A stretch of 64,000 nucleotides of DNA from Escherichia coli. GTDB lineage: Bacteria > Pseudomonadota > Gammaproteobacteria > Enterobacterales > Enterobacteriaceae. Positions 1-52,270 of this stretch are shown piece by piece. The translations under genes were made by a program, and so were the position numbers. Location of the stretch: assembly GCF_050920415.1 (NCBI RefSeq), contig NZ_CP169309.1; one strand, given 5' to 3'. The notes under the pieces are model-generated. The model searched no databases. It had not been told where the DNA came from and saw only the letters and a program-made list of their open reading frames with translations. Numbering within the stretch: the first letter of the stretch is position 1; each line of letters begins with the position of its first letter.

Positions 1-432
1 GCACGACCTGATGCCAGCGAACAAGAGTTACAAACAGCACTGGATAACGCGTGGGTCAGTGAGTTTCTACCGCTCCTGCCACAAGGCGTTGATACGCCTG
101 TTGGCGACCAGGCTGCCCGCCTTTCCGTAGGCCAGGCACAACGTGTGGCGGTGGCGCGTGCATTACTGAATCCCTGTTCGCTATTACTGTTGGATGAACC
201 CGCAGCAAGCCTTGATGCTCACAGTGAACAGCGCGTAATGGAGGCGCTGAATGCCGCCTCTCTGCGCCAGACAACGTTAATGGTCACCCACCAGTTAGAA
301 GATCTTGCTGACTGGGATGTCATTTGGGTAATGCAGGATGGTCAGATTATCGAGCAAGGACGTTACGCGGAATTAAGCGTGGCTGGTGGTCCTTTCGCCA
401 CATTGCTGGCCCATCGTCAGGAGGAGATTTAA
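1..432 (+). CDS. cydD: Cysteine/glutathione ABC exporter CydD, C-terminal part (5' end lies outside the window)
   Basis: Open frame from base 1 to the stop at 430-432; translation has an ABC signature-like LSVGQAQR and Walker B LLLLDEP; directly precedes cydC as in the cydDC operon. Confidence 0.9.
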   Translation, partial: ARPDASEQELQTALDNAWVSEFLPLLPQGVDTPVGDQAARLSVGQAQRVAVARALLNPCSLLLLDEPAASLDAHSEQRVMEALNAASLRQTTLMVTHQLEDLADWDVIWVMQDGQIIEQGRYAELSVAGGPFATLLAHRQEEI

Positions 433-2154
433 ATGCGCGCTTTGCTACCCTATCTGGCACTGTATAAACGTCATAAATGGATGTTAAGTCTTGGTATTGT
501 GCTGGCAATTGTCACGCTGCTCGCCAGTATCGGTCTGTTGACACTTTCCGGCTGGTTCCTCTCGGCCTCAGCGGTAGCGGGGGTTGCCGGACTGTACAGC
601 TTCAACTATATGCTACCCGCTGCGGGCGTGCGTGGTGCAGCAATCACCCGTACTGCCGGGCGCTATTTTGAACGTCTGGTAAGTCACGACGCGACTTTCC
701 GCGTGTTGCAGCATCTGCGCATTTACACCTTCAGCAAATTGCTACCCCTCTCCCCTGCCGGACTGGCGCGCTATCGTCAGGGCGAATTGCTCAACCGCGT
801 CGTGGCGGATGTTGATACGCTCGATCATCTTTACCTGCGCGTTATCTCGCCGCTGGTAGGCGCTTTTGTAGTGATTATGGTGGTGACTATCGGGTTAAGT
901 TTTCTTGATTTCACCCTCGCCTTTACGCTGGGTGGCATTATGTTACTGACGCTTTTCCTGATGCCACCGCTGTTTTATCGTGCGGGAAAAAGCACCGGGC
1001 AAAATCTGACTCATCTTCGCGGGCAGTATCGCCAACAACTGACAGCCTGGCTGCAAGGGCAAGCTGAGCTGACCATTTTTGGTGCCAGCGATCGTTATCG
1101 CACGCAATTAGAGAATACTGAAATTCAGTGGCTGGAAGCGCAACGCCGTCAATCTGAACTGACAGCTTTGTCGCAAGCAATAATGCTGTTAATTGGCGCG
1201 TTAGCGGTGATCCTGATGCTGTGGATGGCGTCTGGCGGCGTTGGTGGCAATACTCAACCAGGCGCGTTAATTGCCCTGTTTGTCTTCTGTGCGTTAGCCG
1301 CGTTTGAAGCACTGGCACCAGTAACGGGTGCATTTCAGCATCTGGGGCAAGTCATTGCCTCTGCCGTACGGATCACCGATTTAACGGATCAAAAACCTGA
1401 AGTCACCTTCCCTGATACCCAAACCCGTGTTGCCGATTGCGTTTCGCTGACGTTACGGGATGTTCAGTTCACTTATCCGGAGCAGTCCCAACAGGCACTT
1501 AAAGGGATTTCTCTTCAGGTAAACGCCGGAGAACATATGGCGATTCTCGGGCGAACCGGATGCGGTAAATCAACATTGTTACAACTGCTGACCCGCGCAT
1601 GGGACCCGCAACAGGGCGAGATTTTAATTAACGATAGCCCCATAGCCAGCCTGAACGAAGCAACTCTACGACAGACCATCAGCGTTGTGCCACAGCGAGT
1701 GCATCTGTTTAGCGCCACACTGCGTGATAATCTGTTACTCGCCTCGCCTGGCAGTAGTGATGAAGTTTTGGCGGAGATCTTGCGTCGAGTTGGTCTGGAG
1801 AAGCTGCTCGAGGATGCAGGTCTCAACAGTTGGTTAGGTGAAGGCGGACGCCAGCTCTCCGGTGGTGAACTGCGCCGTCTGGCTATCGCCCGTGCGCTGT
1901 TACATGATGCGCCACTGGTATTGCTGGATGAACCTACCGAAGGCTTAGATGCCACAACTGAAAGTCAGATCCTTGAATTACTTGCAGAAATGATGCGTGA
2001 GAAAACGGTGTTAATGGTCACCCATCGACTTCGCGGGCTCTCTCGTTTCCAGCAAATAATAGTGATGGACAACGGGCAAATTATTGAGCAAGGTACTCAC
2101 GCAGAACTGCTTGCCCGACAGGGGCGTTATTACCAGTTTAAGCAGGGTTTGTAA
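433..2154 (+). CDS. cydC: Cysteine/glutathione ABC exporter CydC (fused permease and ATPase)
   Basis: 573-aa ORF with N-terminal transmembrane region and C-terminal NBD (GRTGCGKST, LSGGE, LLLDEP); ATG immediately follows the cydD stop. Confidence 0.95.
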   Translation: MRALLPYLALYKRHKWMLSLGIVLAIVTLLASIGLLTLSGWFLSASAVAGVAGLYSFNYMLPAAGVRGAAITRTAGRYFERLVSHDATFRVLQHLRIYTFSKLLPLSPAGLARYRQGELLNRVVADVDTLDHLYLRVISPLVGAFVVIMVVTIGLSFLDFTLAFTLGGIMLLTLFLMPPLFYRAGKSTGQNLTHLRGQYRQQLTAWLQGQAELTIFGASDRYRTQLENTEIQWLEAQRRQSELTALSQAIMLLIGALAVILMLWMASGGVGGNTQPGALIALFVFCALAAFEALAPVTGAFQHLGQVIASAVRITDLTDQKPEVTFPDTQTRVADCVSLTLRDVQFTYPEQSQQALKGISLQVNAGEHMAILGRTGCGKSTLLQLLTRAWDPQQGEILINDSPIASLNEATLRQTISVVPQRVHLFSATLRDNLLLASPGSSDEVLAEILRRVGLEKLLEDAGLNSWLGEGGRQLSGGELRRLAIARALLHDAPLVLLDEPTEGLDATTESQILELLAEMMREKTVLMVTHRLRGLSRFQQIIVMDNGQIIEQGTHAELLARQGRYYQFKQGL

Positions 2155-2195
2155 GCTATTATTGAACGATCCGACTTGCGTGGAGTTTTGCGGTC

Positions 2196-2900
2196 ATGCG
2201 CCTGGTTCAGCTTTCTCGCCATTCAATAGCCTTCCCTTCCCCGGAAGGCGCATTACGTGAGCCTAACGGCCTGCTGGCACTGGGGGGCGATCTTAGCCCT
2301 GCGCGCCTGTTAATGGCTTATCAGCGTGGTATTTTTCCGTGGTTTTCTCCAGGCGACCCCATCCTCTGGTGGTCGCCCGATCCTCGCGCGGTACTATGGC
2401 CTGAATCATTGCATATCAGCCGTAGTATGAAACGATTTCATAAACACTCGCCCTATCGTGTCACGATGAATTACGCCTTTGGTCAGGTCATTGAAGGCTG
2501 TGCCAGCGATCGCGAAGAAGGAACCTGGATCACGCGTGGCGTGGTCGAAGCCTACCATCGCCTTCACGAACTCGGTCATGCCCACTCCATCGAAGTCTGG
2601 TGTGAAGATGAGCTTGTTGGCGGTATGTACGGCGTGGCCCAGGGAACGCTATTTTGTGGCGAGTCCATGTTCAGCCGGATGGAAAACGCGTCCAAAACGG
2701 CGCTACTGGTCTTCTGTGAGGAATTTATCCGTCACGGTGGCAAACTTATCGACTGCCAGGTCCTTAACGATCACACAGCTTCGCTTGGTGCCTGCGAAAT
2801 TCCCCGCCGGGATTATCTAAATTATCTCAATCAAATGCGCCTCGGACGATTGCCGAATAATTTCTGGGTACCACGGTGCTTGTTTTCACCACAAGAATGA
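2196..2900 (+). CDS. aat: Leucyl/phenylalanyl-tRNA--protein transferase
   Basis: 234-aa ORF, length and position (between cydC and infA) match Aat. Confidence 0.93.
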
Positions 2901-3181
2901 ATGTTTTCGGCACATTTCTCCCCAGAGTGTTATAATTGCGGTCGCAGAGTTGGTTACGCTCATTACCCCGCTGCCGATAAGGAATTTTTCGCGTCAGGTA
3001 ACGCCCATCGTTTATCTCACCGCTCCCTTATACGTTGCGCTTTTGGTGCGGCTTAGCCGTGTGTTTTCGGAGTAATGTGCCGAACCTGTTTGTTGCGATT
3101 TAGCGCGCAAATCTTTACTTATTTACAGAACTTCGGCATTATCTTGCCGGTTCAAATTACGGTAGTGATACCCCAGAGGAT

Positions 3182-3403
<222 letters not shown>

Positions 3404-3442
3404 TTGTTTTACCGCCTGATGGGCGAAGAGAAAGAACGCGTA

Positions 3443-3474
3443 AAAGGTCGGTTTAACCGGCCTTTTTATTTTGT
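3443..3474 (+). terminator. Candidate rho-independent terminator downstream of infA
   Basis: Hairpin aaaaggtcgg-ttta-accggcctt followed by tttttatttt. Confidence 0.5.
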
Positions 3475-3577
3475 ACGAAGAACGTTGGAAGTATAAGTAC
3501 ATAACTTGTCTCGATGTAGATATACTGCACAACTTGTTTACAGTATGAGCAAACGAGAATTGTCAGTAAAATTCTTC

Positions 3578-3606
3578 TTGACCGTTTTACTCCAACTCCC
3601 TATAGT
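3578..3606 (+). promoter_or_regulatory. Candidate sigma-70 promoter for serW
   Basis: TTGACC (3578-3583), 17-bp spacer, TATAGT (3601-3606), then a GC-rich discriminator typical of stable-RNA promoters. Confidence 0.4.
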
Positions 3607-3649
3607 AGCGCCCCGTTGCCCCCCATGAGGTCAGGCAGCAAAACAATTT

Positions 3650-3737
3650 GGTGAGGTGTCCGAGTGGCTGAAGGAGCACGCCTGGAAAGTGTGTATACGG
3701 CAACGTATCGGGGGTTCGAATCCCCCCCTCACCGCCA
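3650..3737 (+). tRNA. serW: tRNA-Ser (anticodon GGA), 88 nt including CCA
   Basis: GGTGAGGTGTCCGAGTGGCTGAAGGAGCACGCCTGGAAAGTG...GGGGGTTCGAATCCCCCCCTCACCGCCA; acceptor stem ggtgagg/cctcacc, long variable arm, encoded CCA. Confidence 0.95.
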
Positions 3738-3750
3738 TATTTGAAGAAGA

Positions 3751-3777
3751 GCTCGTACGAAAGTACGGGCTTTTTTT
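3751..3777 (+). terminator. Rho-independent terminator after serW
   Basis: 8-bp stem gctcgtac/gtacgggc with GAAA tetraloop followed by T7. Confidence 0.7.
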
Positions 3778-3787
3778 CGCATTTTAT

Positions 3788-3867
3788 CTGCCTGTACGGC
3801 AGTGAACAAAATTACAAAGCATCAAAACCAGGGAATAGTTTTCTAAGCTGCCTGTACGGCAGTGAAC
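3788..3867. repeat. Two copies of a 20-bp direct repeat ctgcctgtacggcagtgaac (3788-3807 and 3848-3867), each holding a small hairpin
   Basis: Exact 20-bp identity read from the sequence, 60 bp centre to centre. Confidence 0.6.
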
Positions 3868-3926
3868 TCAAATACTACACGTCTAGCCCGTTGTTAATAA
3901 AGCAAAACCATCTCATTTTCCTGCTG

Positions 3927-3945
3927 CCCCCCCCCCCCCCCCCCC
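3927..3945. repeat. Homopolymeric C19 tract followed by T6
   Basis: 19 consecutive C at 3927-3945, then tttttt. Confidence 0.9.
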
Positions 3946-4030
3946 TTTTTTATCCTTACCTTTCAGCTGCACTACTTATCAACAACTTACCATCATCATC
4001 AAAAAAAGGGTCTGAACCTCCTCCACCCCA

Positions 4031-4068
4031 TAAATAAAAAGTCCGTAACCTCTTTCGAGATTACGGAC
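4031..4068 (-). terminator. Candidate rho-independent terminator of clpA
   Basis: Inverted repeat gtccgtaa...ttacggac, followed on the minus strand by tttttattta, just 3' of the clpA stop. Confidence 0.6.
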
Positions 4069-4093
4069 TTCACCAACCTACCTAACAATTAGA

Positions 4094-6370
4094 TTAATGC
4101 GCTGCTTCCGCCTTGTGCTTTTGTGCACTCTGGAATCCGTAAGTCAGCTCATTTTTCTCTTTATCCAGCGCAACCGTCACCTGACCGCCGTCCACCAGCG
4201 AACCAAACAACAGTTCGTTGGCGAGCGGTTTTTTCAGGTTGTCCTGGATGACACGCGCCATCGGACGTGCGCCCATCGCCCGGTCGTAACCTTTCTCGGC
4301 CAGCCAGTTACGCGCTTCCTGGCTCACTTCCAGAGAAACACCTTTCTGATCCAACTGAACCTGCAACTCGACGATGAACTTATCCACCACCTGATGGATC
4401 ACGTCGGTGGAGAGATGATCGAACCAGATAATGTTGTCGAGACGGTTACGGAATTCCGGTGTAAAGATCTTCTTGATCTCTTCCATCGCATCGGTGCTGT
4501 TATCCTGATGGATAAGACCAATCGATTTACGCTCAGTTTCCCGTACCCCGGCATTAGTGGTCATCACCAGCACCACGTTACGGAAGTCCGCTTTGCGTCC
4601 GTTGTTATCGGTCAGCGTACCGTTGTCCATCACCTGCAACAGAATATTGAACACGTCCGGGTGCGCTTTCTCGATTTCGTCCAGCAGCAGCACCGCATGA
4701 GGATGCTTGATGACCGCATCAGTCAGCAAACCGCCCTGATCAAAACCAACGTATCCCGGAGGCGCACCAATCAGACGGCTGACGGTATGGCGTTCCATAT
4801 ACTCGGACATATCAAAGCGTAACAGTTCAATGCCCAGAGCTTTGGAAAGCTGCACCGTCACCTCGGTTTTCCCGACCCCGGTAGGACCAGCAAACAGGAA
4901 CGAACCGACTGGTTTATGTTCGTGACCTAAACCTGCACGCGCCATCTTAATGGCTTCAGTCAGCGCCTCAATGGCTTTATCCTGACCGAAGACCAGCATT
5001 TTCAGGCGATCGCTGAGGTTTTTCAGGGTATCGCGGTCACTCTGAGAAACACTCTTCTCTGGAATGCGCGCAATACGGGCCACCACGGACTCAATATCCG
5101 CCACATTAACGGTTTTCTTGCGTTTGCTTACCGGCATCAGGCGTGCGCGAGCGCCCGCTTCGTCGATAACGTCAATAGCTTTATCCGGCAGATGACGATC
5201 GTTAATGTATTTCACCGCCAGCTCCACCGCAGCACGCACCGCTTTCGCGGTATAACGCACGTCGTGGTGCGCTTCATACTTCGGTTTCAGGCCATTGATG
5301 ATTTGAACAGTTTCTTCGATCGACGGTTCAGTAATATCAATTTTCTGGAAGCGACGCGCCAGAGCACGGTCTTTCTCGAAAATGTTGCTGAACTCCTGAT
5401 AGGTTGTCGAACCAATTACGCGAATTTTACCGCTGGAGAGCAACGGTTTGATCAGGTTAGCCGCATCAACCTGACCACCAGAGGCTGCACCCGCACCGAT
5501 AATGGTGTGGATCTCATCAATAAACAGGATGCTGTTAGTGTCCTGCTCCAGCTGCTTGAGCAACGCTTTAAAACGTTTTTCAAAGTCGCCGCGATATTTT
5601 GTGCCCGCTAACAGAGAACCGATATCGAGAGAGTAAATCGTACAGTCAGCCATCACTTCCGGCACATCGCCCTGAACAATTCGCCAGGCAAGACCTTCCG
5701 CAATCGCGGTTTTGCCGACACCGGATTCCCCCACCAGCAGCGGGTTGTTTTTACGGCGACGGCAGAGAACCTGAATAGCACGCTCCAGCTCCTTCTCACG
5801 ACCAATCAGTGGGTCGATTCCGCCCACACGCGCAAGCTGATTCAGGTTCGTCGTGAAATTCTCCATACGTTCCTCCCCACCAGCTTGTTCTTCGCTGTTT
5901 GGCTGGCTGCCAGGATCAGAAGACTGTGTCGGCTCGTCTTTACGCGTGCCATGAGAGATAAAGTTCACCACATCGAGACGGCTGACTTCATGTTTGCGCA
6001 ACAGATATGCCGCCTGCGACTCCTGTTCGCTAAAGATAGCGACCAGAACGTTTGCACCGGTAACCTCATTGCGACCGGAGGACTGGACATGGAAGACCGC
6101 ACGTTGCAGTACACGCTGAAAACTCAGCGTTGGCTGTGTGTCGCGCTCCTCTTCACTGGCAGGCAGAACGGGTGTGGTTTGTTCAATAAAGGCTTCCAGT
6201 TCCTGACGGAGCGCAACCAAATCCACAGAACACGCTTCCAGCGCCTCCCGGGCAGATGGGTTACTGAGCAGCGCCAGTAACAAGTGCTCGACGGTCATAA
6301 ACTCATGACGGTGCTCGCGCGCTCTGGCGAAAGCCATATTTAAACTGAGTTCCAGTTCTTGATTGAGCAT
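4094..6370 (-). CDS. clpA: ATP-dependent Clp protease ATP-binding subunit ClpA
   Basis: ORF matches ClpA ([31 protein letters not shown]..., two AAA+ modules GESGVGKT and GPTGVGKT); start trimmed to ATG at 6368-6370, preceded by a gggagg SD. Confidence 0.97.
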
Positions 6371-6400
6371 AGGCACCTCCCCCAATTTTTATGCCTGCAT

Positions 6401-6721
6401 TCAGGCTTTTTCTAGCGTACACAGCAATGGATGCTCATTCTCCCTCGCGTACTTGTTCACCATCGCCACTTTGGTTTCTGCAACCTCGGCGGTAAAGACT
6501 CCGCAAATGGCCTTCCCCTGGTAGTGAACAGCGAGCATCAATTGCGTTGCACGTTCTACATCATAAGAAAAGAATTTTTGTAACACGTCAATAACAAACT
6601 CCATCGGAGTGTAATCATCATTGACTAATATCACTTTATACATAGATGGCGGTTTTAGCGCGTCGCGAACTTTTTCTTCCGCCAGTTGATCAAAGTCCAG
6701 CCAGTCGTTCGTTTTACCCAT
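6401..6721 (-). CDS. clpS: Clp protease adaptor ClpS
   Basis: 106-aa [46 protein letters not shown]..., immediately upstream of clpA. Confidence 0.97.
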
Positions 6722-7043
6722 TGTCAGTTATCATCTTCGGTTACGGTTATCGGCAGAACGCCCTGCCGCTGACAAGAGCTTATTTGCCTGACCAATCTAC
6801 TCCACATGATAGATAACTATCATCTATCGTTGGCATCAGCGACATCTGTCACATTCCTGTCAATAGCGTTAACTGCTTCAAATTTTTGATTCATACCTGC
6901 CCCCTGGCCCCTGTCAAATGCTTGACGGCTCGCCCTAATTCTCTAAATTGTATTTCTAGAGTTGGCGAGGTTTTGAACAGCCCCCTCTCTGACCCCGGTT
7001 TATTCCATCTTACTTGTATAAGATTTGCGAAGGATGTCGAAGC

Positions 7044-7340: not shown

Positions 7341-9287
7341 TTACTCTCGTGCCAGAGCATCTACTGGATCCAGTCGTGCCGCATTTCGTGCGGGTAACCA
7401 GCCAAATAAAATCCCGGTGACCGTCGAGCAGAGAAACGCCAGCAGCAGCGCCAACGGTGAAAAACCAATCTCCCAGCCGGGTAAGAAAAGCTGCAAGGTG
7501 AAAGCAATTAACAGTGACAGTGTTATTCCCAACGCGCCACCGACCAGGCAAACCAGTACGGCTTCGATCAGAAACTGTTGCAAAACATCGCTTGCTCGCG
7601 CACCTACAGCCATGCGAATGCCAATTTCCCGCGTCCGCTCGGTCACTGATACCAGCATAATATTCATTACACCAATACCGCCCACCACCAGCGAAATCAC
7701 CGCCACCAGCGTCAGAAACAGTTGTAAAGTACGTGTGGTCTTTTCAACGGTTTTCAAGACGCCGTCCATGTTCCAGGTAAAGAAATCCTTCTTACCGTGG
7801 CGCAGTGAAAGTAAACGCGTGAGTTGCTGTTCCGCCTCGGCGCTGTCAAAGCCCTCTTTCACCCTGACAGTAATAGAGTTCAGCCACGACTGGCCCATAA
7901 CTCTCCCGGACATCGTGCTGTAAGGTAACCACACGCGCAGCACTTTACTACTGCCAAACATCGACTGTTTTTCCTCTGCCACGCCGATGACTCTCGCTGG
8001 CATATTACCAACCAAGATAACCTCGCCAACCACATTTGCTTTATGGGGGAAAAGCTGACGGCGAGTATTACTGTCGAGAACCACGACTTGCGCACGGCCA
8101 TTCAGCTGTTCCTGATTAAAGGTGTTCCCTTCACTGAAGGTCATGCCATAGACATTAAAATAATCGCCGCTCACGCCATTGGCACTGGCAGCCACATCGA
8201 CATTGTTATAACGCAGGCGCAGGTTTTGCGAGACGGCAGGTGTGGCTGAGGCGACCCACGGTTGTTTTTGGATGGCGATTAAGTCGTCGTACTTCAGCGC
8301 CTGCTGATATTGCGGATCGTCATCGCCAAAATCTTTCCCGGGATAGACATCAATAGTATTCGTACCAATAGAACGAATATCCGCCAGCACCATTTGTTTG
8401 GCGGCGTCGCCGACCACGACAATGGAAACCACCGACGCAATACCGATAATAATCCCCAGCATGGTCAGTAAAGTACGCATTTTATTCGCTGCCAGCGCCC
8501 GCCACGCCATCGTCAGCGCCTCGTTAAAACCGCTGACAAACTGCCGCCAGCCAGACGCCGTGTTGATAACAGGCTCCGTCCCGCCAGCAACATTCACTTT
8601 TTCAATGGCGGGAGGATTGCGCACAATTTCGCCGTCGCGAATTTCGATCACCCGCTCGGCCTGAGCAGCGACCTGCGGATCGTGGGTAACGATAATCACC
8701 GTATGCCCGCGATCGCGCAGCTGATGCAGGATCGCCATCACCTCTTCGCCAGAATGACTGTCCAGTGCGCCGGTTGGTTCATCGGCAAGAATTACCTGAC
8801 CGCCGTTCATCAATGCCCGCGCGATGCTGACGCGCTGTTGCTGACCACCCGAAAGCTGTGCCGGGTAATACTCTGTACGGTCTTCCAGTCCCAGTCGTTG
8901 CAGTAACTCCTGGGCGCGAAGCAACCGCTGTTTCCGCTCAAGACCGGCATAGACGGCGGGTACTTCAACGTTCTGCTCGGCGGTTAAATGTGAAAGCAAA
9001 TGGTAACGCTGGAAAATAAAGCCGAAGTGTTCGCGACGCAGTTGCGCCAGCGCATCGGCGTCCAGCATGGCAACATCCTGACCGGCGACGCGATAGGTGC
9101 CGCTGGTGGCCTTATCCAGGCAGCCGAGAATATTCATCAGGGTCGATTTACCGGAACCCGAAGCGCCGACAATCGCCACCATCTCACCAGCATAAATATC
9201 GAGGGTGATGCCCTTCAGCACCTCAACTTGCTCATCACCGGCAGGATAGCTGCGACGAATATCCTTTAATTCGAGCAAGGGCGTCAT
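7341..9287 (-). CDS. macB: Macrolide export ABC transporter MacB (ATPase/permease)
   Basis: 648-aa ORF with N-terminal NBD ([28 protein letters not shown]) and C-terminal FtsX-like permease. Confidence 0.95.
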
Positions 9288-10399
9288 TGTGCAGCTCCTG
9301 GTTTGGCCTCACCAATCACCACTTCATCGCCCGCTTCCAGCCCTTTGACAATCTCAACATCGGTATCGTTGCGTGCGCCAATCGTCACTTCACGCTCGCG
9401 TGTTTCACCATTACGCAACAATTTGACTTTATAACGATTATCGCCAACCGGATCGCCTAACGCCGACAGAGGGATCGTCAGCACATTTTTCACATCGGTG
9501 AGCTGAATATGCACTTGCGCGGTCATATCCAGCCGCAGCAAACCATTGGGGTTTGGAACTTCAAAACGGGCGTAATAGAAAATAGCGTCATTAACCTTTT
9601 CCGGCGTCGGTAGCACATCCTTGATTTGCCCCTCGTAGCGCGTCAGCGGATCGCCAAGCACTGTAAACCAGGTTTTTTGCCCCGGCTTCAGGTGAATTAC
9701 ATCCGCTTCAGAAACCTGCGCTTTTACCAGCATGGTACTCATATCTGCCAGCGTCAAAATGTTCGGTGCTTGTTGTGCGGCAATCACCGTCTGACCTTGC
9801 AGAGTGGTGATTTGCGTGACTTCCCCAGCCATCGGGGCAACGATGCGGGTGTAATCGAGATTGGTTTTAGCCGTATCGAGAGAGGCCTGATTGCGCTTTA
9901 TTTGCGCGTCAATGGTGCCAATTTGTGCCTGTTTCACAGCCATCTCCGTCGCGGCGGTGTCGAGATCCTGTTGTGAAACAGCCTGCGTTTGGGCCAGACG
10001 TTGCTGACGTGAATACGTCACCCGTGCCAGTTTCAGTTCCGCTTCCGCCTGCTGACGCTGCGCGCGCAACTCCATCAACGTTGCTTCCACCTCCTTGATC
10101 TGGTTTTCAGCCTGTTCAGGATCAATAACACCTAAAAGTTGGTCTTTTTTTACTTTATCGCCAATCGCCACCGACAGCGTTTTCAACTGACCGCTGACCT
10201 GTGCACCCACGTCAACCTTACGCAGCGCGTCCAGCTTTCCGGTCGCCAGCACGCTTTGCTGTAAATCGCCTGGACGCACAATCAGCGTCTGATAAGTCGG
10301 CACGGGTGCGTTAAGAATTCTCCATAACGTAATCAGCCCGGCAATGACTATCACCAGCGCAATAACGTAACGCTTCTTCACGGTTTTCCGCTTTTTCAT
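9284..10399 (-). CDS. macA: Macrolide efflux periplasmic adaptor MacA
   Basis: 371-aa membrane-fusion protein [18 protein letters not shown]...; 4-bp overlap with the macB start. Confidence 0.95.
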
Positions 10400-10513
10400 A
10401 AATATTCTGAATACTCCATATGCCAATCCGGGTCATTAACTTCAACGAAATATCAACAAAACCCTAAAATTTACGTTAGTAATCACACTATTGATGTTTG
10501 GTTAAGATACGCC

Positions 10514-11506
10514 ATGGTGAAATCGACGTTATGTATAACCATTGATTTCATGAATATGTCGCAGCTAACTGAACGGACCTTTACGCCATCTGACTCTCTC
10601 AGCAGCCTGTCACTTTTTCTTAGTCTGGCACGTGGACAGTGTCGGCCGGGTAAATTTTGGCATCGCCGTAGTTTTCGCCAGAAATTTTTGCTGCGCTCGT
10701 TGATTATGCCGCGTTTAAGCGTTGAGTGGATGAACGAACTTTCCCACTGGCCTAATCTCCATGTGTTGTTAACGCGCCAGCCGCGACTGCCTGTGCGTCT
10801 GCATCGCCCTTACCTTGCGGCGAATCTTAGCCGCAAGCAATTGCTGGAGGCGTTACGTTACCATTATGCATTGCTCCGTGCCTGCATGTCGGCAGAAGAA
10901 TTCAGCTTATATTTGAATACTCCCGGGCTGCAACTGGCGAAGCTGGAAGGCAAAAACGGCGAGCAGTTCACGCTTGAGCTGACCATGATGATCTCAATGG
11001 ATAAAGAAGGTGACAGCACAATCCTGTTCCGCAACTGCGAAGGTATTCCTCTGGCAGAGATCACCTTTACTCTGTGTGAATACCAGGGGAAAAGAACAAT
11101 GTTTATTGGCGGGCTGCAAGGTGCGAAATGGGAAATTCCACATCAGGAAATCCAGAATGCGACGAAAGCCTGCCACGGGCTATTTCCCAAACGTCTCGTG
11201 ATGGAAGCGGCCTGTCTGTTTGCCCAACGTTTGCAGGTAGAGCAGATCATTGCCGTCAGCAATGAAACGCATATTTACCGCAGCCTGCGTTATCGCGATA
11301 AAGAAGGCAAGATCCATGCAGATTACAACGCTTTCTGGGAGTCGGTTGGCGGCGTATGTGATGCTGAACGCCATTACCGCCTTCCGGCACAGATAGCACG
11401 AAAAGAGATTGCCGAAATCGCCAGTAAAAAACGGGCTGAATACCGTCGGCGCTATGAGATGCTCGACGCTATTCAGCCACAAATGGCCACGATGTTTCGC
11501 GGTTAA
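10514..11506 (+). CDS. ybjX: DUF535/VirK-family protein YbjX
   Basis: 330-aa ORF in the position and at the length recalled for ybjX; exact start not verified. Confidence 0.8.
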   Translation: MVKSTLCITIDFMNMSQLTERTFTPSDSLSSLSLFLSLARGQCRPGKFWHRRSFRQKFLLRSLIMPRLSVEWMNELSHWPNLHVLLTRQPRLPVRLHRPYLAANLSRKQLLEALRYHYALLRACMSAEEFSLYLNTPGLQLAKLEGKNGEQFTLELTMMISMDKEGDSTILFRNCEGIPLAEITFTLCEYQGKRTMFIGGLQGAKWEIPHQEIQNATKACHGLFPKRLVMEAACLFAQRLQVEQIIAVSNETHIYRSLRYRDKEGKIHADYNAFWESVGGVCDAERHYRLPAQIARKEIAEIASKKRAEYRRRYEMLDAIQPQMATMFRG

Positions 11507-13161
11507 TCCGCGCGACCGCGCGCCAGCCACAGCACGCGTGAGAACATTTTTTTCAGCAGCGTCGGTACGGAGTCCACACCACGACGGCCGGCCTCCATTG
11601 CCACTTCAATGGCAAGATCGGGTTTGGAAGAGCGATGGATCGCTTTCGAGATAATTTTACGCAGATTCATCGGCACATTTTCCGGGATCTGCGCCACGCG
11701 GTGGAACACATCGGAAAATCCCTGGCGATACATAAAATGTTCCATATCCAGCGCCGGTAACGCCGTTAAATGTTCTCGTTCGGCTTCCCGATCGTTATTC
11801 AACAGGCTGCGTACCGTAGCGGCATACTTCTTCCCGGCTTCATCGCCATCGACCAGCACATGCCATTCAATCCCCATTCGACGGGCGAATTTAACCAGTG
11901 GCTTTAGCCCGGACTGGGCAAACTCAATGACCTTGATCCCTTCGGCATCAAAATGATGTCCACACTGACGCGCCAGTTCATTGATAACCCAGGTTTCCGT
12001 TTCGCCTTCCACCAGCAGCCAGCAGCGAGCAAACAGCGATGACGGACGATTAAAACGAATGTGGAAAGAGATGCGTCGGCTATCTTCGGTACTCAAGCCA
12101 CTCGGCCCCAGACGCCAGGCGGCAACGCGAGAGGACTCACGTACCAGTCGGCAAACATGCTCTACCGGCGTTAACGAAAGCAACTCACCCGAGTTGGTGG
12201 TGGCAATGCGCTGCAATGGCAGAAGATTCAACAGATGCCAGGCAACTGAAAGCATAATAGGGTGTAAACGCGTTTCTGGATCTTCAATCAGCAATAATGG
12301 ACGTGCGTCTTTATCGAGCCGCAATGTGCCTTTTGCCTGCAATAAAGTAGCAAACAGGCCGAGCAAAATAACCCGATACGAGCGCCCTCCAGGCCGGTCA
12401 ATCATCCGGTTGATGATATCCAGATAGCGCCAGCTTCGTTGCTCATTGCTGGCTCGCCGCCGCATTAAACGATATCGCGCCTGTCCGGCCCCCTGCTCAG
12501 AGAAATAATGCTCAAGCAGTTGCACCATTGCGGAAAGTCCCTGACGAATCTGCCCATCAGAGAGATTTTGCGGATGTGAGGATAACTCACGGGCGAGGAA
12601 ATCGAGCTGGCGCGCGGTGACTTCCACATTAGGGACATTTGGCACCGTGCCGTTACGAATACGGCGCATAAAGCGGGCATCACGCAAGCGCAGCACCGGC
12701 ATTAAACGCACCAGATGGCGTGCCTGATCGTTAATATCCTCGACATCAATCGGATGTCCGTCTTTATCGAGAAAACTGCGGAGTGTCATCACGCTGCCGT
12801 CTTCCGCACTCTCCCCTTCCAGACGATAAAAAATACGGTGATAGCCATCGGTGCATGGCGTCCAGCACGCTTCCAGCGGCCGATAGCGGCGAACCCGATG
12901 TCGGCCTGGCAGAGATTCGCGGAAGGTCAAAATAATATGCAGATGATGTTCTCGCCCGTTGATATCTCCCGGCGGGAACCAGAAATCGTCGCGCTCAAAA
13001 TGGTAGAGATCTGATTCTGGCGATAGCAGCAGAGTTAAGGCGTCCAGCAAGCTGGATTTACCCCACGCGTTCTCCCCAATCAGGACGTTGTTTTGTTCCA
13101 GCATCAACGACAAACGGTTGATACCGCGAAAACCCACAATTTCAACGCGCTCAAGAATCAT
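11503..13161 (-). CDS. ybjD: OLD-family ATPase/nuclease-like protein YbjD
   Basis: 552-aa ORF with N-terminal P-loop LIGENAWGKSSLLDAL; position and length match ybjD. Confidence 0.85.
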   Translation of the reverse strand: MILERVEIVGFRGINRLSLMLEQNNVLIGENAWGKSSLLDALTLLLSPESDLYHFERDDFWFPPGDINGREHHLHIILTFRESLPGRHRVRRYRPLEACWTPCTDGYHRIFYRLEGESAEDGSVMTLRSFLDKDGHPIDVEDINDQARHLVRLMPVLRLRDARFMRRIRNGTVPNVPNVEVTARQLDFLARELSSHPQNLSDGQIRQGLSAMVQLLEHYFSEQGAGQARYRLMRRRASNEQRSWRYLDIINRMIDRPGGRSYRVILLGLFATLLQAKGTLRLDKDARPLLLIEDPETRLHPIMLSVAWHLLNLLPLQRIATTNSGELLSLTPVEHVCRLVRESSRVAAWRLGPSGLSTEDSRRISFHIRFNRPSSLFARCWLLVEGETETWVINELARQCGHHFDAEGIKVIEFAQSGLKPLVKFARRMGIEWHVLVDGDEAGKKYAATVRSLLNNDREAEREHLTALPALDMEHFMYRQGFSDVFHRVAQIPENVPMNLRKIISKAIHRSSKPDLAIEVAMEAGRRGVDSVPTLLKKMFSRVLWLARGRAD

Positions 13162-13586
13162 ATCCCCTCCAGAAATATGTGACTTATCCTTTACGCTGGC
13201 AGTATAACGGGAAAGGCCTTGCTAATACGTGATGACATCACATTTAAGCATGGCAAATGTCTGAAAAATGAGCGAATAATCGCGTTATACTCCCTCTTGC
13301 TGATAAGTCTGCAAAAACAACAAAATCAAATAATTAGCATGATAAATTATTTTTTATTACGCCTAAAGGATTAAATCTTTTGCTTGCACTACACTGTCAA
13401 TCAGACAAATGACTATATGGGGCAACCCGCTGTTGCCCTAAATCAAATTTACTGGATTTATTTATCTGGTGAATGACTCGCCTTCGTTTTTAAAATAGCC
13501 GCGCATTATTTCCGTCGTCACTTTTTTACGACGACCCTATAAAACGACCATATTTTTCACAGGGTCAATTTTTAATTGAGGTGGAT

Positions 13587-14282
13587 ATGTTCAGAAAATT
13601 AGCAGCTGAATGTTTTGGTACTTTCTGGCTTGTTTTTGGTGGCTGTGGTAGTGCCGTACTGGCCGCAGGCTTCCCGGAATTAGGCATTGGTTTTACCGGC
13701 GTAGCGCTGGCATTCGGTTTAACCGTTCTGACGATGGCCTTCGCTGTTGGTCATATTTCTGGTGGTCATTTTAACCCGGCGGTCACTATTGGCTTATGGG
13801 CTGGCGGACGTTTTCCGGCAAAAGAAGTCGTTGGCTACGTAATTGCCCAGGTTGTCGGCGGTATTGTTGCAGCGGCGCTGCTGTATTTAATTGCCAGTGG
13901 TAAAACGGGATTTGACGCGGCAGCCAGCGGTTTTGCTTCTAACGGTTATGGCGAGCATTCACCAGGCGGTTATTCCATGCTTTCCGCGCTGGTGGTTGAA
14001 CTGGTATTGAGTGCAGGTTTCTTGCTGGTGATCCACGGCGCAACCGACAAATTCGCTCCGGCGGGTTTTGCACCAATTGCCATTGGTCTGGCATTAACGC
14101 TGATTCACTTAATCAGTATTCCGGTGACTAACACTTCCGTTAACCCGGCGCGCAGTACTGCGGTTGCCATCTTCCAGGGCGGCTGGGCGTTAGAACAACT
14201 GTGGTTCTTCTGGGTAGTGCCAATTATCGGCGGTATTATCGGTGGTCTGATTTACCGGACTCTGCTGGAAAAGCGTAATTAA
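13587..14282 (+). CDS. aqpZ: Aquaporin Z
   Basis: 231-aa MIP-family protein with two NPA motifs (HFNPAV, SVNPAR); [25 protein letters not shown]... Confidence 0.96.
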
Positions 14283-14320: not shown

Positions 14321-14379
14321 AAATATATAGATTCATCTTCCTGTTGCGCTCCTTGATGTGTTAAGCCACATATAGTCAC

Positions 14380-14600
14380 TGGCGCAGGGAGCGCGCAGGG
14401 GGCGGCCAATCGCCGCCGCCCCCTGCACCCCCGGGCTCTGGCGAACAAAATCGCCGCTGCGCGGTGCCCTCGACTTATCCCTTGCGGCTACCGGGTCGGG
14501 CGCGAGGTAACATCCCGGTAAAACGCGCCCTCAGCCCACATCCATGTGGGCTGCCCCGGCCTTCAGGGAACGCCTCGGCGATTTTGACGCCACCAACACC
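14380..14600. repeat. GC-rich multi-hairpin intergenic element (possibly a Box C or other small repeat family)
   Basis: Perfect 11-bp inverted repeat cagggggcggc...gccgccccctg, palindrome cccacatccatgtggg, several GC-rich stems; sharp contrast with AT-rich flanks. Confidence 0.45.
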
Positions 14601-51643: not shown

Positions 51644-52270
51644 ATGATTACGCTGTGGGGTCGGAATAATTCAACCAACGTAAAAAAAGTATTGCTGACG
51701 CTCGAAGAACTGGAACTACCTTATGAGCAAATTCTCGCGGGCCGTGAGTTTGGGGTAAACCACGATGCTGATTTTCTGGCGATGAACCCTAACGGGCTGG
51801 TGCCGTTGTTGCGTGACGACGAAAGTGATCTCATCCTTTGGGAATCAAATGCCATTGTCCGCTATCTGGCGGCACAGTATGGGCAAAACCGCCTGTGGAT
51901 CGACTCACCGGCACGCCGTGCAGAAGCGGAAAAATGGATGGACTGGGCAAACCAGACGCTCAGTAATGCCCATCGCGGGATCCTGATGGGATTGGTCAGA
52001 ACCCCCCCCGAAGAGCGCGATCAGGCCGCCATTGATGCCAGTTGCAAAGAGTGCGACGCCCTGTTTGCCCTGCTCGATGCGGAACTGGCAAAAGTAAAAT
52101 GGTTCTCTGGCGACGAGTTTGGTGTGGGCGATATCGCCATCGCACCGTTCATCTACAATTTGTTTAATGTTGGCCTGACCTGGACACCGCGTCCAAATCT
52201 GCAACGCTGGTATCAGCAACTCACTGAACGCCCCGCAGTGCGCAAAGTGGTGATGATCCCCGTGAGCTAA
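51644..52270 (+). CDS. gstB: Glutathione S-transferase GstB (YliJ)
   Basis: 208-aa [33 protein letters not shown]... Confidence 0.94.

What the first reader, a model, noticed from the sequence alone, without database searches (positions are those of the whole stretch)
11503..11506. Convergent 3'-end overlap of ybjX and ybjD
ybjX (+) ends at 11506 and ybjD (-) ends at 11503, so the two stop codons overlap on opposite strands with no room for a terminator between them. Transcripts must read into the partner gene, giving potential antisense interference.
Basis: seen in the sequence. Interest (0 to 1): 0.25.

Follow-up and report, generated by a model that had tools for sequence, protein, structure and literature searches.

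The report
ybjX/ybjD four-base tail-to-tail gene overlap
Two E. coli genes on opposite strands really do end on the same four bases (TTAA), so their transcripts must run into each other, but this is a common, already catalogued arrangement that the cell handles with ordinary termination machinery.

Summary
ybjX (+) stops at TAA 11504-11506 and ybjD (-) stops at the complement of 11503-11505, so the CDSs share TTAA at 11503-11506. The same 4-nt overlap ([C/T]TA[A/G]) is kept in Escherichia, Salmonella, Citrobacter, Klebsiella aerogenes and two unnamed Enterobacteriaceae. K. pneumoniae has lost ybjX.

It is not unusual. Three of about 11 convergent pairs in this window overlap this way, and a 2007 survey counted 58 convergent overlaps in E. 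coli.

- Read-through into the partner is geometrically forced.
- ExcludonFinder (NAR 2025) already lists ybjD-ybjX as a convergent excludon.
- Adams et al. 2021 report a strong Rho termination region antisense to ybjD, about 0.9 kb past the ybjX stop.
- A lack of intergenic space does not rule out a terminator. A very stable hairpin plus U6 inside the ybjX 3' coding region (11478..11426, - strand) is a candidate embedded ybjD terminator. It is far more stable than synonymous recodings allow in Escherichia and Citrobacter, but not in Salmonella or K. aerogenes.
- The T7 run inside ybjD follows from its protein sequence and is not a special terminator.
- Antisense interference remains untested.

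Verdict: real, ordinary, already known, low interest.

The parts
11503..11506 (.). TTAA tetramer shared by the two CDSs. The ybjX stop TAA is 11504-11506. The ybjD stop TAA is the complement of 11503-11505.
   Evidence: Conserved as TTAA, CTAG or CTAA in all relatives that have both genes.
10550..11506 (+). ybjX CDS (VirK/YbjX family, DUF535, PhoPQ-activated). The longer ORF start at 10514, used in the K-12 annotation, lies upstream of the transcription start mapped in Shigella.
   Evidence: PGAP annotation. Pfam PF04393 on orthologues. Promoter, PhoP box and start-codon mapping in Shigella from PMC12562796, transferred here by sequence.
11503..13161 (-). ybjD CDS (552 aa). [quoted passage not shown]
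   Evidence: Pfam DUF2813/AAA_15/OLD-like_TOPRIM. PMC13261556.
11426..11478 (-). Candidate intrinsic terminator or 3' hairpin of the ybjD transcript, embedded in ybjX codons. It has a 45-nt hairpin (11478..11434), a CG spacer, then U6 (11431..11426), 25-77 nt past the ybjD stop.
   Evidence: - Flagged by the terminator scan.
- The 121-nt fold has z = -2.9.
- Hairpin dG is -25.7 against -11.1 +/- 3.2 for 3000 synonymous recodings of ybjX, none as stable.
- The result holds in Escherichia and Citrobacter, is weak in two deeper lineages, and is absent in Salmonella and K. aerogenes.
- In the alignment 91.7% of cells are paired, with one compensatory pair.
- It is the most stable intragenic 50-nt window on this strand across 17 kb.
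- No mapped 3' end was available to confirm it.
11507..11552 (+). Weak hairpin (11507-11543) plus T7 run (11546-11552) just past the ybjX stop, inside the last 16 codons of ybjD. It looks like a terminator but is not supported as a selected or efficient one.
   Evidence: - The fold is not distinguishable from shuffles.
- The hairpin is no better than synonymous recodings of ybjD (p = 0.24), and T6+ arises in 64% of recodings of Lys-Lys-Met-Phe.
- The T run is broken outside Escherichia.
- Reads continue about 0.9 kb beyond it.
11507..12388 (+). Read-through segment of ybjX-strand transcription, antisense to the 3' half of ybjD. It is bounded by a Rho termination region at MG1655 917246, which maps to about window 12388.
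   Evidence: PMC7815308 supplementary file 2: -BCM upstream/downstream reads 299/18, +BCM 568/545, Rho score 15.9, P = 6.9e-53. Coordinates mapped. No + strand promoter-like site was found in this stretch.
11787..12026 (+). C-rich, G-poor stretch (C/G up to 1.9 in 80-nt windows) in the read-through RNA. It is a candidate Rho loading region.
   Evidence: Assigning it as the rut site is an inference.
10489..10532 (+). ybjX promoter as defined in Shigella: PhoP box TATTGA-N5-GGTTAA (10489-10505), -10 TGAAAT (10518-10523), and a transcription start near 10531.
   Evidence: Sequence, matched to the description in PMC12562796. Transferred by sequence identity and not tested here.

Best explanation
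This is a long-lived, mutually locked 4-nt tail-to-tail overlap of two unrelated genes. It is not a dedicated regulatory device.

Why it persists (inferred): the two stop codons share two bases. Most substitutions there, and any indel between the genes, would damage one or both C-termini, so the geometry has been frozen since before the Escherichia, Salmonella, Citrobacter and Klebsiella lineages split.

Transcription necessarily overlaps (shown by geometry and published RNA-seq), and the two directions end differently:
- ybjX direction. RNA polymerase starting at the PhoPQ-activated ybjX promoter passes the stop and meets no effective intrinsic terminator. Once the ribosome has left, the untranslated C-rich RNA recruits Rho. 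Rho ends transcription within about 0.9 kb, inside ybjD. The Rho dependence comes from a published bicyclomycin experiment. That the RNA originates at the ybjX promoter, and which stretch is the rut site, are both inferred.
- ybjD direction. Transcription most likely ends about 77 nt into ybjX, at a strong hairpin followed by U6 that ybjX codon choice maintains in Escherichia and Citrobacter. This is inferred from anatomy and recoding statistics. No 3' end has been mapped.

The minimal sense/antisense overlap is therefore roughly 11426-11552, and it extends to about 12388 for ybjX read-through. Any antisense effect on ybjD is probably a tolerated by-product that Rho keeps short.
For: - Stops and overlap.
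- Conservation of the 4-nt geometry with three different tetramers across genera, even where YbjX is only 48% identical.
- Commonness: three such pairs among about 11 convergent pairs in the window. PMC2174442 reports 58 convergent overlaps in E. coli, with CTAA/TTAA/CTAG/TTAG tetramers producing the jump at overlap length 4.
- Transcript overlap: ybjD-ybjX is in Table 1 of PMC12288877.
- Rho: a termination region antisense to ybjD with Rho score 15.9, P = 6.9e-53. The same table has Rho regions antisense to amiD, ybjS and yliI, the other two 4-nt pairs of the window. In that study 51.5% of 1078 Rho regions are antisense.
- C>G stretch at 11787-12026.
- Embedded ybjD hairpin plus U6.
- The - strand RNA beyond ybjD shows only one modest C>G window (C/G 1.53), against a broad run up to 1.9 on the + strand.
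- ybjX can be lost while ybjD stays intact (K. pneumoniae).
Against: - No 3' end has been mapped at the proposed ybjD terminator. The curated Term-seq tables of PMC7815308 have no entry for either gene or for MG1655 9177xx-9182xx.
- The hairpin is not above recoding expectation in Salmonella or K. aerogenes. The U tract is broken in Citrobacter and one deeper lineage.
- AAA AAA for Lys-Lys is expected by codon usage (161 AAA against 45 AAG).
- The hairpin folds almost as well in the ybjX mRNA, so it could serve that RNA instead.
- The antisense reads over ybjD could come from an unrecognised internal promoter rather than from ybjX read-through.
- The 'frozen accident' argument is reasoning, not a test. 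Conservation is also what a selected regulatory overlap would show.
Confidence: 0.6

Rival explanations
1. Functional excludon. PhoPQ-induced ybjX transcription, running antisense through the 3' half of ybjD, lowers expression of the potentially toxic OLD-family protein YbjD. The mechanism would be polymerase collision and/or RNase III cleavage of the RNA duplex, making the two genes mutually exclusive. Under this reading the conserved overlap is selected for that coupling.
For: - The pair is catalogued as a convergent excludon.
- About 0.9 kb of antisense RNA lies over ybjD in untreated cells, and covers the whole gene when Rho is inhibited.
- ybjX is inducible by low Mg2+ through PhoPQ.
- YbjD is cytotoxic when over-expressed.
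- The gene pair and its exact overlap are conserved across genera.
Against: - No expression data link the two genes; only two papers in the library mention both.
- ExcludonFinder classification is almost automatic for two expressed genes whose CDSs already overlap.
- K. pneumoniae keeps an intact ybjD with ybjX deleted.
- Similar Rho-limited antisense read-through is seen at several neighbouring convergent pairs of the region, so it is generic.
- The p19 dsRNA validation failed for convergent excludons in general.
Confidence: 0.15
2. Collision-driven bidirectional termination. Converging polymerases pause at a stem-loop near the shared stops and terminate each other, giving sharp, overlapping 3' ends without Rho or U tracts (the model of Ju et al. 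2019 and Wang et al. 2022).
For: - The model was proposed for hundreds of E. coli convergent pairs and needs a stem-loop.
- A small inverted repeat CGCGG-TTAAT-CCGCG brackets the stops in this strain and in K-12.
Against: - The inverted repeat is not conserved even within E. coli (L002, L003).
- The ybjX-strand boundary is strongly bicyclomycin-sensitive and lies about 0.9 kb away, not at the stops.
- The mechanism works best for highly expressed pairs. ybjD is probably weakly expressed; I found no measurement of its level beyond detection by RT-qPCR.
- The strong hairpin has a U tract on one strand only.
Confidence: 0.08
3. Annotation artefact. One of the stops is mis-assigned, so the genes do not truly overlap.
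For: The YbjX C-terminus is poorly conserved in sequence (MFRG, MFRD, LFRR, TFKR, ACQR, TCER, CCRP).
Against: - A stop codon is a fixed property of the reading frame.
- Both frames are long, conserved and annotated identically by PGAP and in K-12.
- The YbjD C-terminus is invariant.
- The YbjX frame ends at the same position in every genus despite sequence drift.
- YbjD 1-552 is functional when cloned to this stop.
Confidence: 0.02

Closest known systems
Four-nucleotide convergent (tail-to-tail) gene overlaps of prokaryotes (Lillo & Krakauer 2007, PMC2174442)
   Same: Two stop codons on opposite strands are packed into one of the four possible tetramers (TTAA here; CTAG and CTAA in relatives). 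That paper counted 58 convergent overlaps in E. coli and noted that any terminators must then lie inside the partner's coding sequence.
   Different: Nothing essential. This is one instance of that class. New here are the depth of conservation and the asymmetry of the two termination routes.
Convergent excludons (ExcludonFinder, Sanmartin et al. 2025, PMC12288877)
   Same: This very pair, ybjD-ybjX, is listed among the 165 convergent excludons of E. coli MG1655 defined by overlapping RNA-seq coverage.
   Different: The excludon concept implies mutually exclusive expression through interference or RNase III. That has not been shown for this pair, and with overlapping CDSs the coverage criterion is met almost by construction.
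Rho-dependent suppression of antisense and read-through transcription (Peters et al. 2012 as cited in Adams et al. 2021, PMC7815308)
   Same: A bicyclomycin-sensitive boundary antisense to a gene, downstream of a convergent neighbour's stop, preceded by C-rich, G-poor RNA.
   Different: Here the read-through starts with zero intergenic distance. The Rho score (15.9) is far higher than at the other two 4-nt pairs of the window (3.8-4.3).
Bidirectional terminators between convergent genes (Ju et al. 2019; Wang et al. 2022 preprint, 10.1101/2022.10.23.513370)
   Same: Convergent genes whose transcripts overlap at their 3' ends, with a stem-loop near the ends.
   Different: The strong hairpin has a U tract on one strand only and lies inside a CDS. 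The opposite direction is Rho-dependent and ends far away.

Membership tests
4-nt convergent stop/stop gene overlap | Two protein-coding genes on opposite strands with their 3' ends facing | tested here: met
   ORFs and annotations. Both have conserved homologues with Pfam domains.
4-nt convergent stop/stop gene overlap | Overlap of exactly 4 nt formed by [C/T]TA[A/G] | tested here: met
   TTAA at 11503-11506. CTAG in L011 and CTAA in K. aerogenes.
Convergent excludon | Transcripts of the two genes overlap in RNA-seq coverage (at least 50% of gene coverage, in at least 50% of samples) | not testable with these tools
   Reported for ybjD-ybjX in Table 1 of PMC12288877. The supplement with per-pair values is not held.
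Convergent excludon | Mutually exclusive expression, or RNase III processing of the duplex | not tested
   I found no data for this pair. The p19 dsRNA validation was uninformative for convergent pairs.
Rho-dependent terminator (ybjX direction) | Read-through increases when Rho is inhibited by bicyclomycin | not testable with these tools
   Published: MG1655 917246 (-), downstream/upstream ratio 18/299 without BCM against 545/568 with BCM, P = 6.9e-53.
Rho-dependent terminator (ybjX direction) | C-rich, G-poor untranslated RNA upstream of the termination region | tested here: met
   C/G of 1.5-1.9 at 11787-12026, and 1.2-1.45 around 12327-12526. That this RNA is untranslated is an inference.
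Intrinsic terminator embedded in the partner CDS (ybjD direction) | Stable G+C-containing hairpin in the nascent RNA | tested here: met
   dG -25.7 kcal/mol; 0 of 3000 synonymous recodings were as stable; rank 11 of 5770 windows.
Intrinsic terminator embedded in the partner CDS (ybjD direction) | U tract immediately after the stem | tested here: met
   U6 lies 2 nt after the stem. It is U5 in some Escherichia and interrupted (UUCUU, UUUCUU) in Citrobacter and L011. AAA AAA is expected from codon usage.
Intrinsic terminator embedded in the partner CDS (ybjD direction) | RNA 3' end mapped at the U tract, Rho-independent | tested here: inconclusive
   No 3' end for ybjD or ybjX appears in the curated Term-seq tables I could search. 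Other datasets are not held. Absence may reflect low ybjD expression.
Intrinsic terminator embedded in the partner CDS (ybjX direction) | Hairpin plus U tract beyond what the partner's protein sequence imposes, and efficient termination | tested here: not met
   Hairpin p = 0.24 against recodings, and T6+ arises in 64% of recodings. The fold has z = -0.9. Reads continue about 0.9 kb further.
Bidirectional terminator (Ju et al. 2019) | One stem-loop serving both strands, with sharp overlapping 3' ends, independent of Rho | tested here: not met
   The U tract is on the - strand only. The + strand sequence after the hairpin is ACAAATGG. The + strand boundary is Rho-dependent.

The most novel reading that the evidence does not exclude
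The conserved overlap could be a regulatory coupling between envelope-stress signalling and an anti-phage OLD protein. PhoPQ-driven ybjX read-through RNA, whose length is set by Rho, would act in cis as an antisense throttle on the cytotoxic YbjD/OldB. The ybjX codons would in turn be selected to encode ybjD's own terminator. Conditions that change PhoPQ or Rho activity, including phage-encoded Rho inhibitors, would then retune this single-gene defence system.
Probability: 0.1. Interest if true: 0.45.

Novelty: already known. Interest (0 to 1): 0.12.

Why it matters
As biology it matters little. It is a textbook-type compact gene junction whose transcript overlap and Rho-dependent clean-up are already in published genome-wide tables.

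It has some practical value. ybjD has just been described as a stand-alone Class 1 OLD anti-phage gene and ybjX as a PhoPQ-regulated envelope factor, and both are being studied with deletion mutants. By my recollection of the Keio design (Baba et al. 2006), which I did not check here, only the last few codons of a deleted gene are kept. If so, a ybjX deletion removes the candidate ybjD terminator (11426-11478), and a ybjD deletion removes the region where ybjX transcription is normally stopped by Rho. Phenotypes of either mutant could therefore partly reflect altered 3' ends or read-through of the partner. The claim that ybjD is 'isolated' from its neighbour holds for promoters but not for transcripts.

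Tried and rejected
- Small inverted repeat CGCGG-TTAAT-CCGCG around the stops as a bidirectional element. Rejected because it is not conserved even among E. coli strains.
- T7 run at 11546-11552 as the ybjX terminator. Rejected as a selected or efficient element.
- Direct 3'-end evidence. The Adams et al. Term-seq tables have no entry for either gene and the TERMITe supplements have none. The Dar & Sorek, Choe et al. and Rend-seq supplements are not held. Ju et al. 2019 and Thomason et al. 2015 are not in the library.
- Consensus PhoP-box scan of the window. It was no better than chance (17 matches against 15.9 expected) and missed the degenerate box, so I used the published Shigella mapping instead.
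- Rfam scan of 10300-13600. Only chance-level hits.
- Covariation test of the embedded hairpin. It is suggestive only: one compensatory pair, with 7 to 15 of 500 shuffles reaching the observed values on percentage paired, both-sided changes and covariation score. This is too weak to prove a structure with 12 related sequences.
- Recoding test in Salmonella and K. aerogenes. Negative, so the hairpin is not a family-wide feature.
- The genome-contig scan with YbjX returned only 13 loci. Breadth was extended through YbjD homologues and their contigs.

Full report
**Observation.** The window is E. coli chromosome. Positions 10400-13300 are 100% identical to strain MFDS1022581 and 95-99% identical to 5,423 other complete genomes. 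The sequence around the finding reads ...cgc ggT TAA tcc.... The + strand ORF ending at 11506 is ybjX. The - strand ORF ending at 11503 is ybjD, 552 aa. ybjX stops at TAA 11504-11506, and ybjD stops at the complement of TTA 11503-11505. The stop codons therefore share two bases and the CDSs share four. MG1655 has the same arrangement, with ybjD at 916473-918131 (+) and ybjX at 918128-919120 (-). Its sequence is identical to the window across the junction.

**Are the stops real?** Yes. The YbjD C-terminus WLARGRAD* is identical in every relative examined. A 2026 study expressed functional YbjD residues 1-552 using a reverse primer ending on this stop. YbjX's last residues drift (MFRG, LFRR, TFKR, ACQR, TCER, CCRP), but its frame always ends at the same position relative to ybjD.

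**Is it more than chance?** The exact 4-nt overlap is found in every locus that carries both genes:
- other E. coli strains, E. albertii, E. whittamii and unnamed Escherichia;
- three Citrobacter;
- Salmonella enterica and Klebsiella aerogenes;
- two unnamed Enterobacteriaceae in which YbjX is only 48% identical.

Three different tetramers occur: TTAA, CTAG and CTAA. That is real conservation of geometry.

The class itself is common, however. In this 64-kb window three convergent pairs have it: ybjX/ybjD (TTAA), ybjS/amiD (CTAA at 23882-23885) and gstB/yliI (CTAA at 52267-52270). That is three of roughly eleven convergent pairs. Lillo & Krakauer (2007) reported 58 convergent overlaps in E. coli. 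They named CTAA, TTAA, CTAG and TTAG as the tetramers behind the jump at overlap length 4, and they raised the same terminator question.

**What happens to the transcripts?** Both polymerases must enter the partner gene. This is already documented.
- ExcludonFinder (NAR 2025) lists ybjD-ybjX, and also amiD-ybjS and yliI-gstB, among the 165 convergent excludons of MG1655. With overlapping CDSs that criterion is met almost by construction once both genes are expressed.
- Adams et al. (eLife 2021, supplementary file 2) give more. They list a Rho termination region at MG1655 917246 on the ybjX strand, classed 'antisense ybjD'. Read counts in the 800-nt upstream/downstream windows are 299/18 untreated and 568/545 with bicyclomycin, giving a Rho score of 15.9 and P = 6.9e-53.
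- Mapped through, this is window position about 12388, 0.9 kb beyond the ybjX stop.
- The same table has Rho regions antisense to amiD, ybjS and yliI. In that study 51.5% of all 1078 Rho regions are antisense.

Rho-limited read-through into the convergent partner is therefore common in this region.

The + strand RNA beyond the ybjX stop has a C-rich, G-poor stretch (C/G up to 1.9) at 11787-12026. I take this as the likely Rho loading region, which is an inference. No + strand promoter-like site lies between the stop and 12388, so read-through from ybjX is the simplest source of this RNA. This too is an inference.

**Is there truly 'no terminator'?** I examined two terminator-like features inside the partner genes.

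(a) Just past the ybjX stop there is a weak hairpin and a T7 run (11546-11552).
- The fold is ordinary.
- It is no more stable than synonymous recodings of ybjD (p = 0.24).
- A T6+ run arises in 64% of recodings of Lys-Lys-Met-Phe.
- The run is broken outside Escherichia.
- Reads continue well beyond it.

It is a by-product of ybjD's protein sequence.

(b) On the - strand, 25-77 nt past the ybjD stop, a 45-nt hairpin (11478..11434) is followed after CG by U6 (11431..11426).
- The terminator scan flags it, and the surrounding 121 nt fold with z = -2.9.
- The hairpin (-25.7 kcal/mol) is more stable than all 3000 synonymous recodings of the ybjX codons that encode it (-11.1 +/- 3.2).
- It is the most stable intragenic 50-nt window on that strand in 17 kb.
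- The excess stability holds in E. albertii, a divergent Escherichia and Citrobacter (p <= 0.003). It is marginal in the two deep lineages. It is absent in Salmonella and K. aerogenes.
- Across species the - strand version is consistently more stable than the + strand version, owing to G·U pairs. In the alignment 91.7% of cells are paired, but only one pair is compensatory.
- The - strand RNA beyond ybjD shows only one modest C>G window, C/G 1.53 at 11142-11063.

I conclude that this is a credible, lineage-restricted embedded intrinsic terminator or 3' hairpin for ybjD. No 3'-end map was available to confirm it.

**Does the overlap regulate anything?** ybjX is activated by PhoPQ at low Mg2+; the promoter, PhoP box and true start codons were mapped in Shigella and the sequence is present at 10489-10556. 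ybjD encodes a Class 1 OLD protein that is cytotoxic and anti-phage when over-expressed. An antisense throttle is therefore conceivable. Several points argue against it:
- No data link the two genes' expression.
- Only two papers in the library mention both genes.
- The dsRNA validation in the excludon paper failed for convergent pairs.
- K. pneumoniae has deleted ybjX and kept an intact ybjD, followed by a 146-nt spacer and macA.

The persistence of the 4-nt geometry has a simpler explanation in mutual locking. The shared bases 11504-11505 are needed by both stops, and any indel would reframe a C-terminus. This is reasoning, not a test.

**Comparison with known systems and novelty.** The feature belongs to the 4-nt convergent overlap class, and both defining features are met. 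It is listed by name as a convergent excludon, but the functional half of that definition is untested. Its ybjX-direction termination fits Rho-dependent suppression of antisense transcription. It does not fit the bidirectional-terminator class, because the U tract is on one strand only and the other direction is Rho-dependent. The finding itself is therefore already known. The new elements here are modest:
- the depth of conservation of the overlap;
- the asymmetric termination picture;
- the recoding evidence for an embedded ybjD hairpin;
- the K. pneumoniae ybjX loss.

**Verdict.** The overlap and read-through are real. 'No terminator' is an over-statement, and interference is unproven. The finding is ordinary, already catalogued and of low interest (0.12). 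It does carry a practical caution for people interpreting ybjX and ybjD deletion phenotypes.

Noticed in passing
window 23882-23885 (ybjS/amiD) and 52267-52270 (gstB/yliI): Two more convergent gene pairs in the same window share a 4-nt stop/stop overlap, both CTAA. Both are in the ExcludonFinder list. Both have Rho termination regions antisense to a partner in Adams et al. supplementary file 2.
   Followed up: partly
window 10514-10556: The long ybjX ORF start (ATG 10514, the 330-aa K-12 annotation) lies upstream of the transcription start mapped in Shigella (near 10531). The real starts are Met13/Met15 (10550 and 10556), as PGAP annotates. The degenerate PhoP box TATTGA-N5-GGTTAA is at 10489-10505.
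   Followed up: partly
L020 4154-4310 and L022 (Klebsiella pneumoniae-type loci): ybjX is absent. ybjD is followed by a 146-nt spacer and then macA on the same strand. An 8-bp G+C hairpin without a U tract sits right after the ybjD stop. L022 is labelled Citrobacter koseri in NCBI but has the K. pneumoniae arrangement.
   Followed up: partly
L002-L012, L017, L021 compared with the window: YbjD is far more conserved than its overlapping neighbour YbjX: 86-99% against 48-97% identity in the same genomes. That is unusually high conservation for a protein proposed to be an anti-phage defence factor.
   Followed up: no
window 14373-14447 and about 14532-14581 (aqpZ-lysO intergenic region): These are by far the most stable 50-nt hairpins in 17 kb, on both strands (down to -41.6 kcal/mol). 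They are probably REP-type palindromes or the aqpZ terminator.
   Followed up: no
window 1-7000 and about 25240-26700, compared with NZ_CP169399.1: The best-matching strain differs from the window in two ways. It carries a prophage-like insertion (integrase, primase, capsid genes) next to yljB/cspD, and an IS2 inside a pentapeptide-repeat gene. The window has the uninterrupted cydDC-aat-infA-serW-clpA-clpS arrangement and no IS2.
   Followed up: partly
window 9284-9287: macA and macB (- strand) overlap by 4 nt in the usual co-directional stop/start way. This illustrates how frequent 4-nt overlaps are in this region.
   Followed up: no
L016/L017 (Salmonella) 1900-3001: Salmonella lacks aqpZ between lysO and ybjD, whereas Escherichia and Klebsiella have it.
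   Followed up: no
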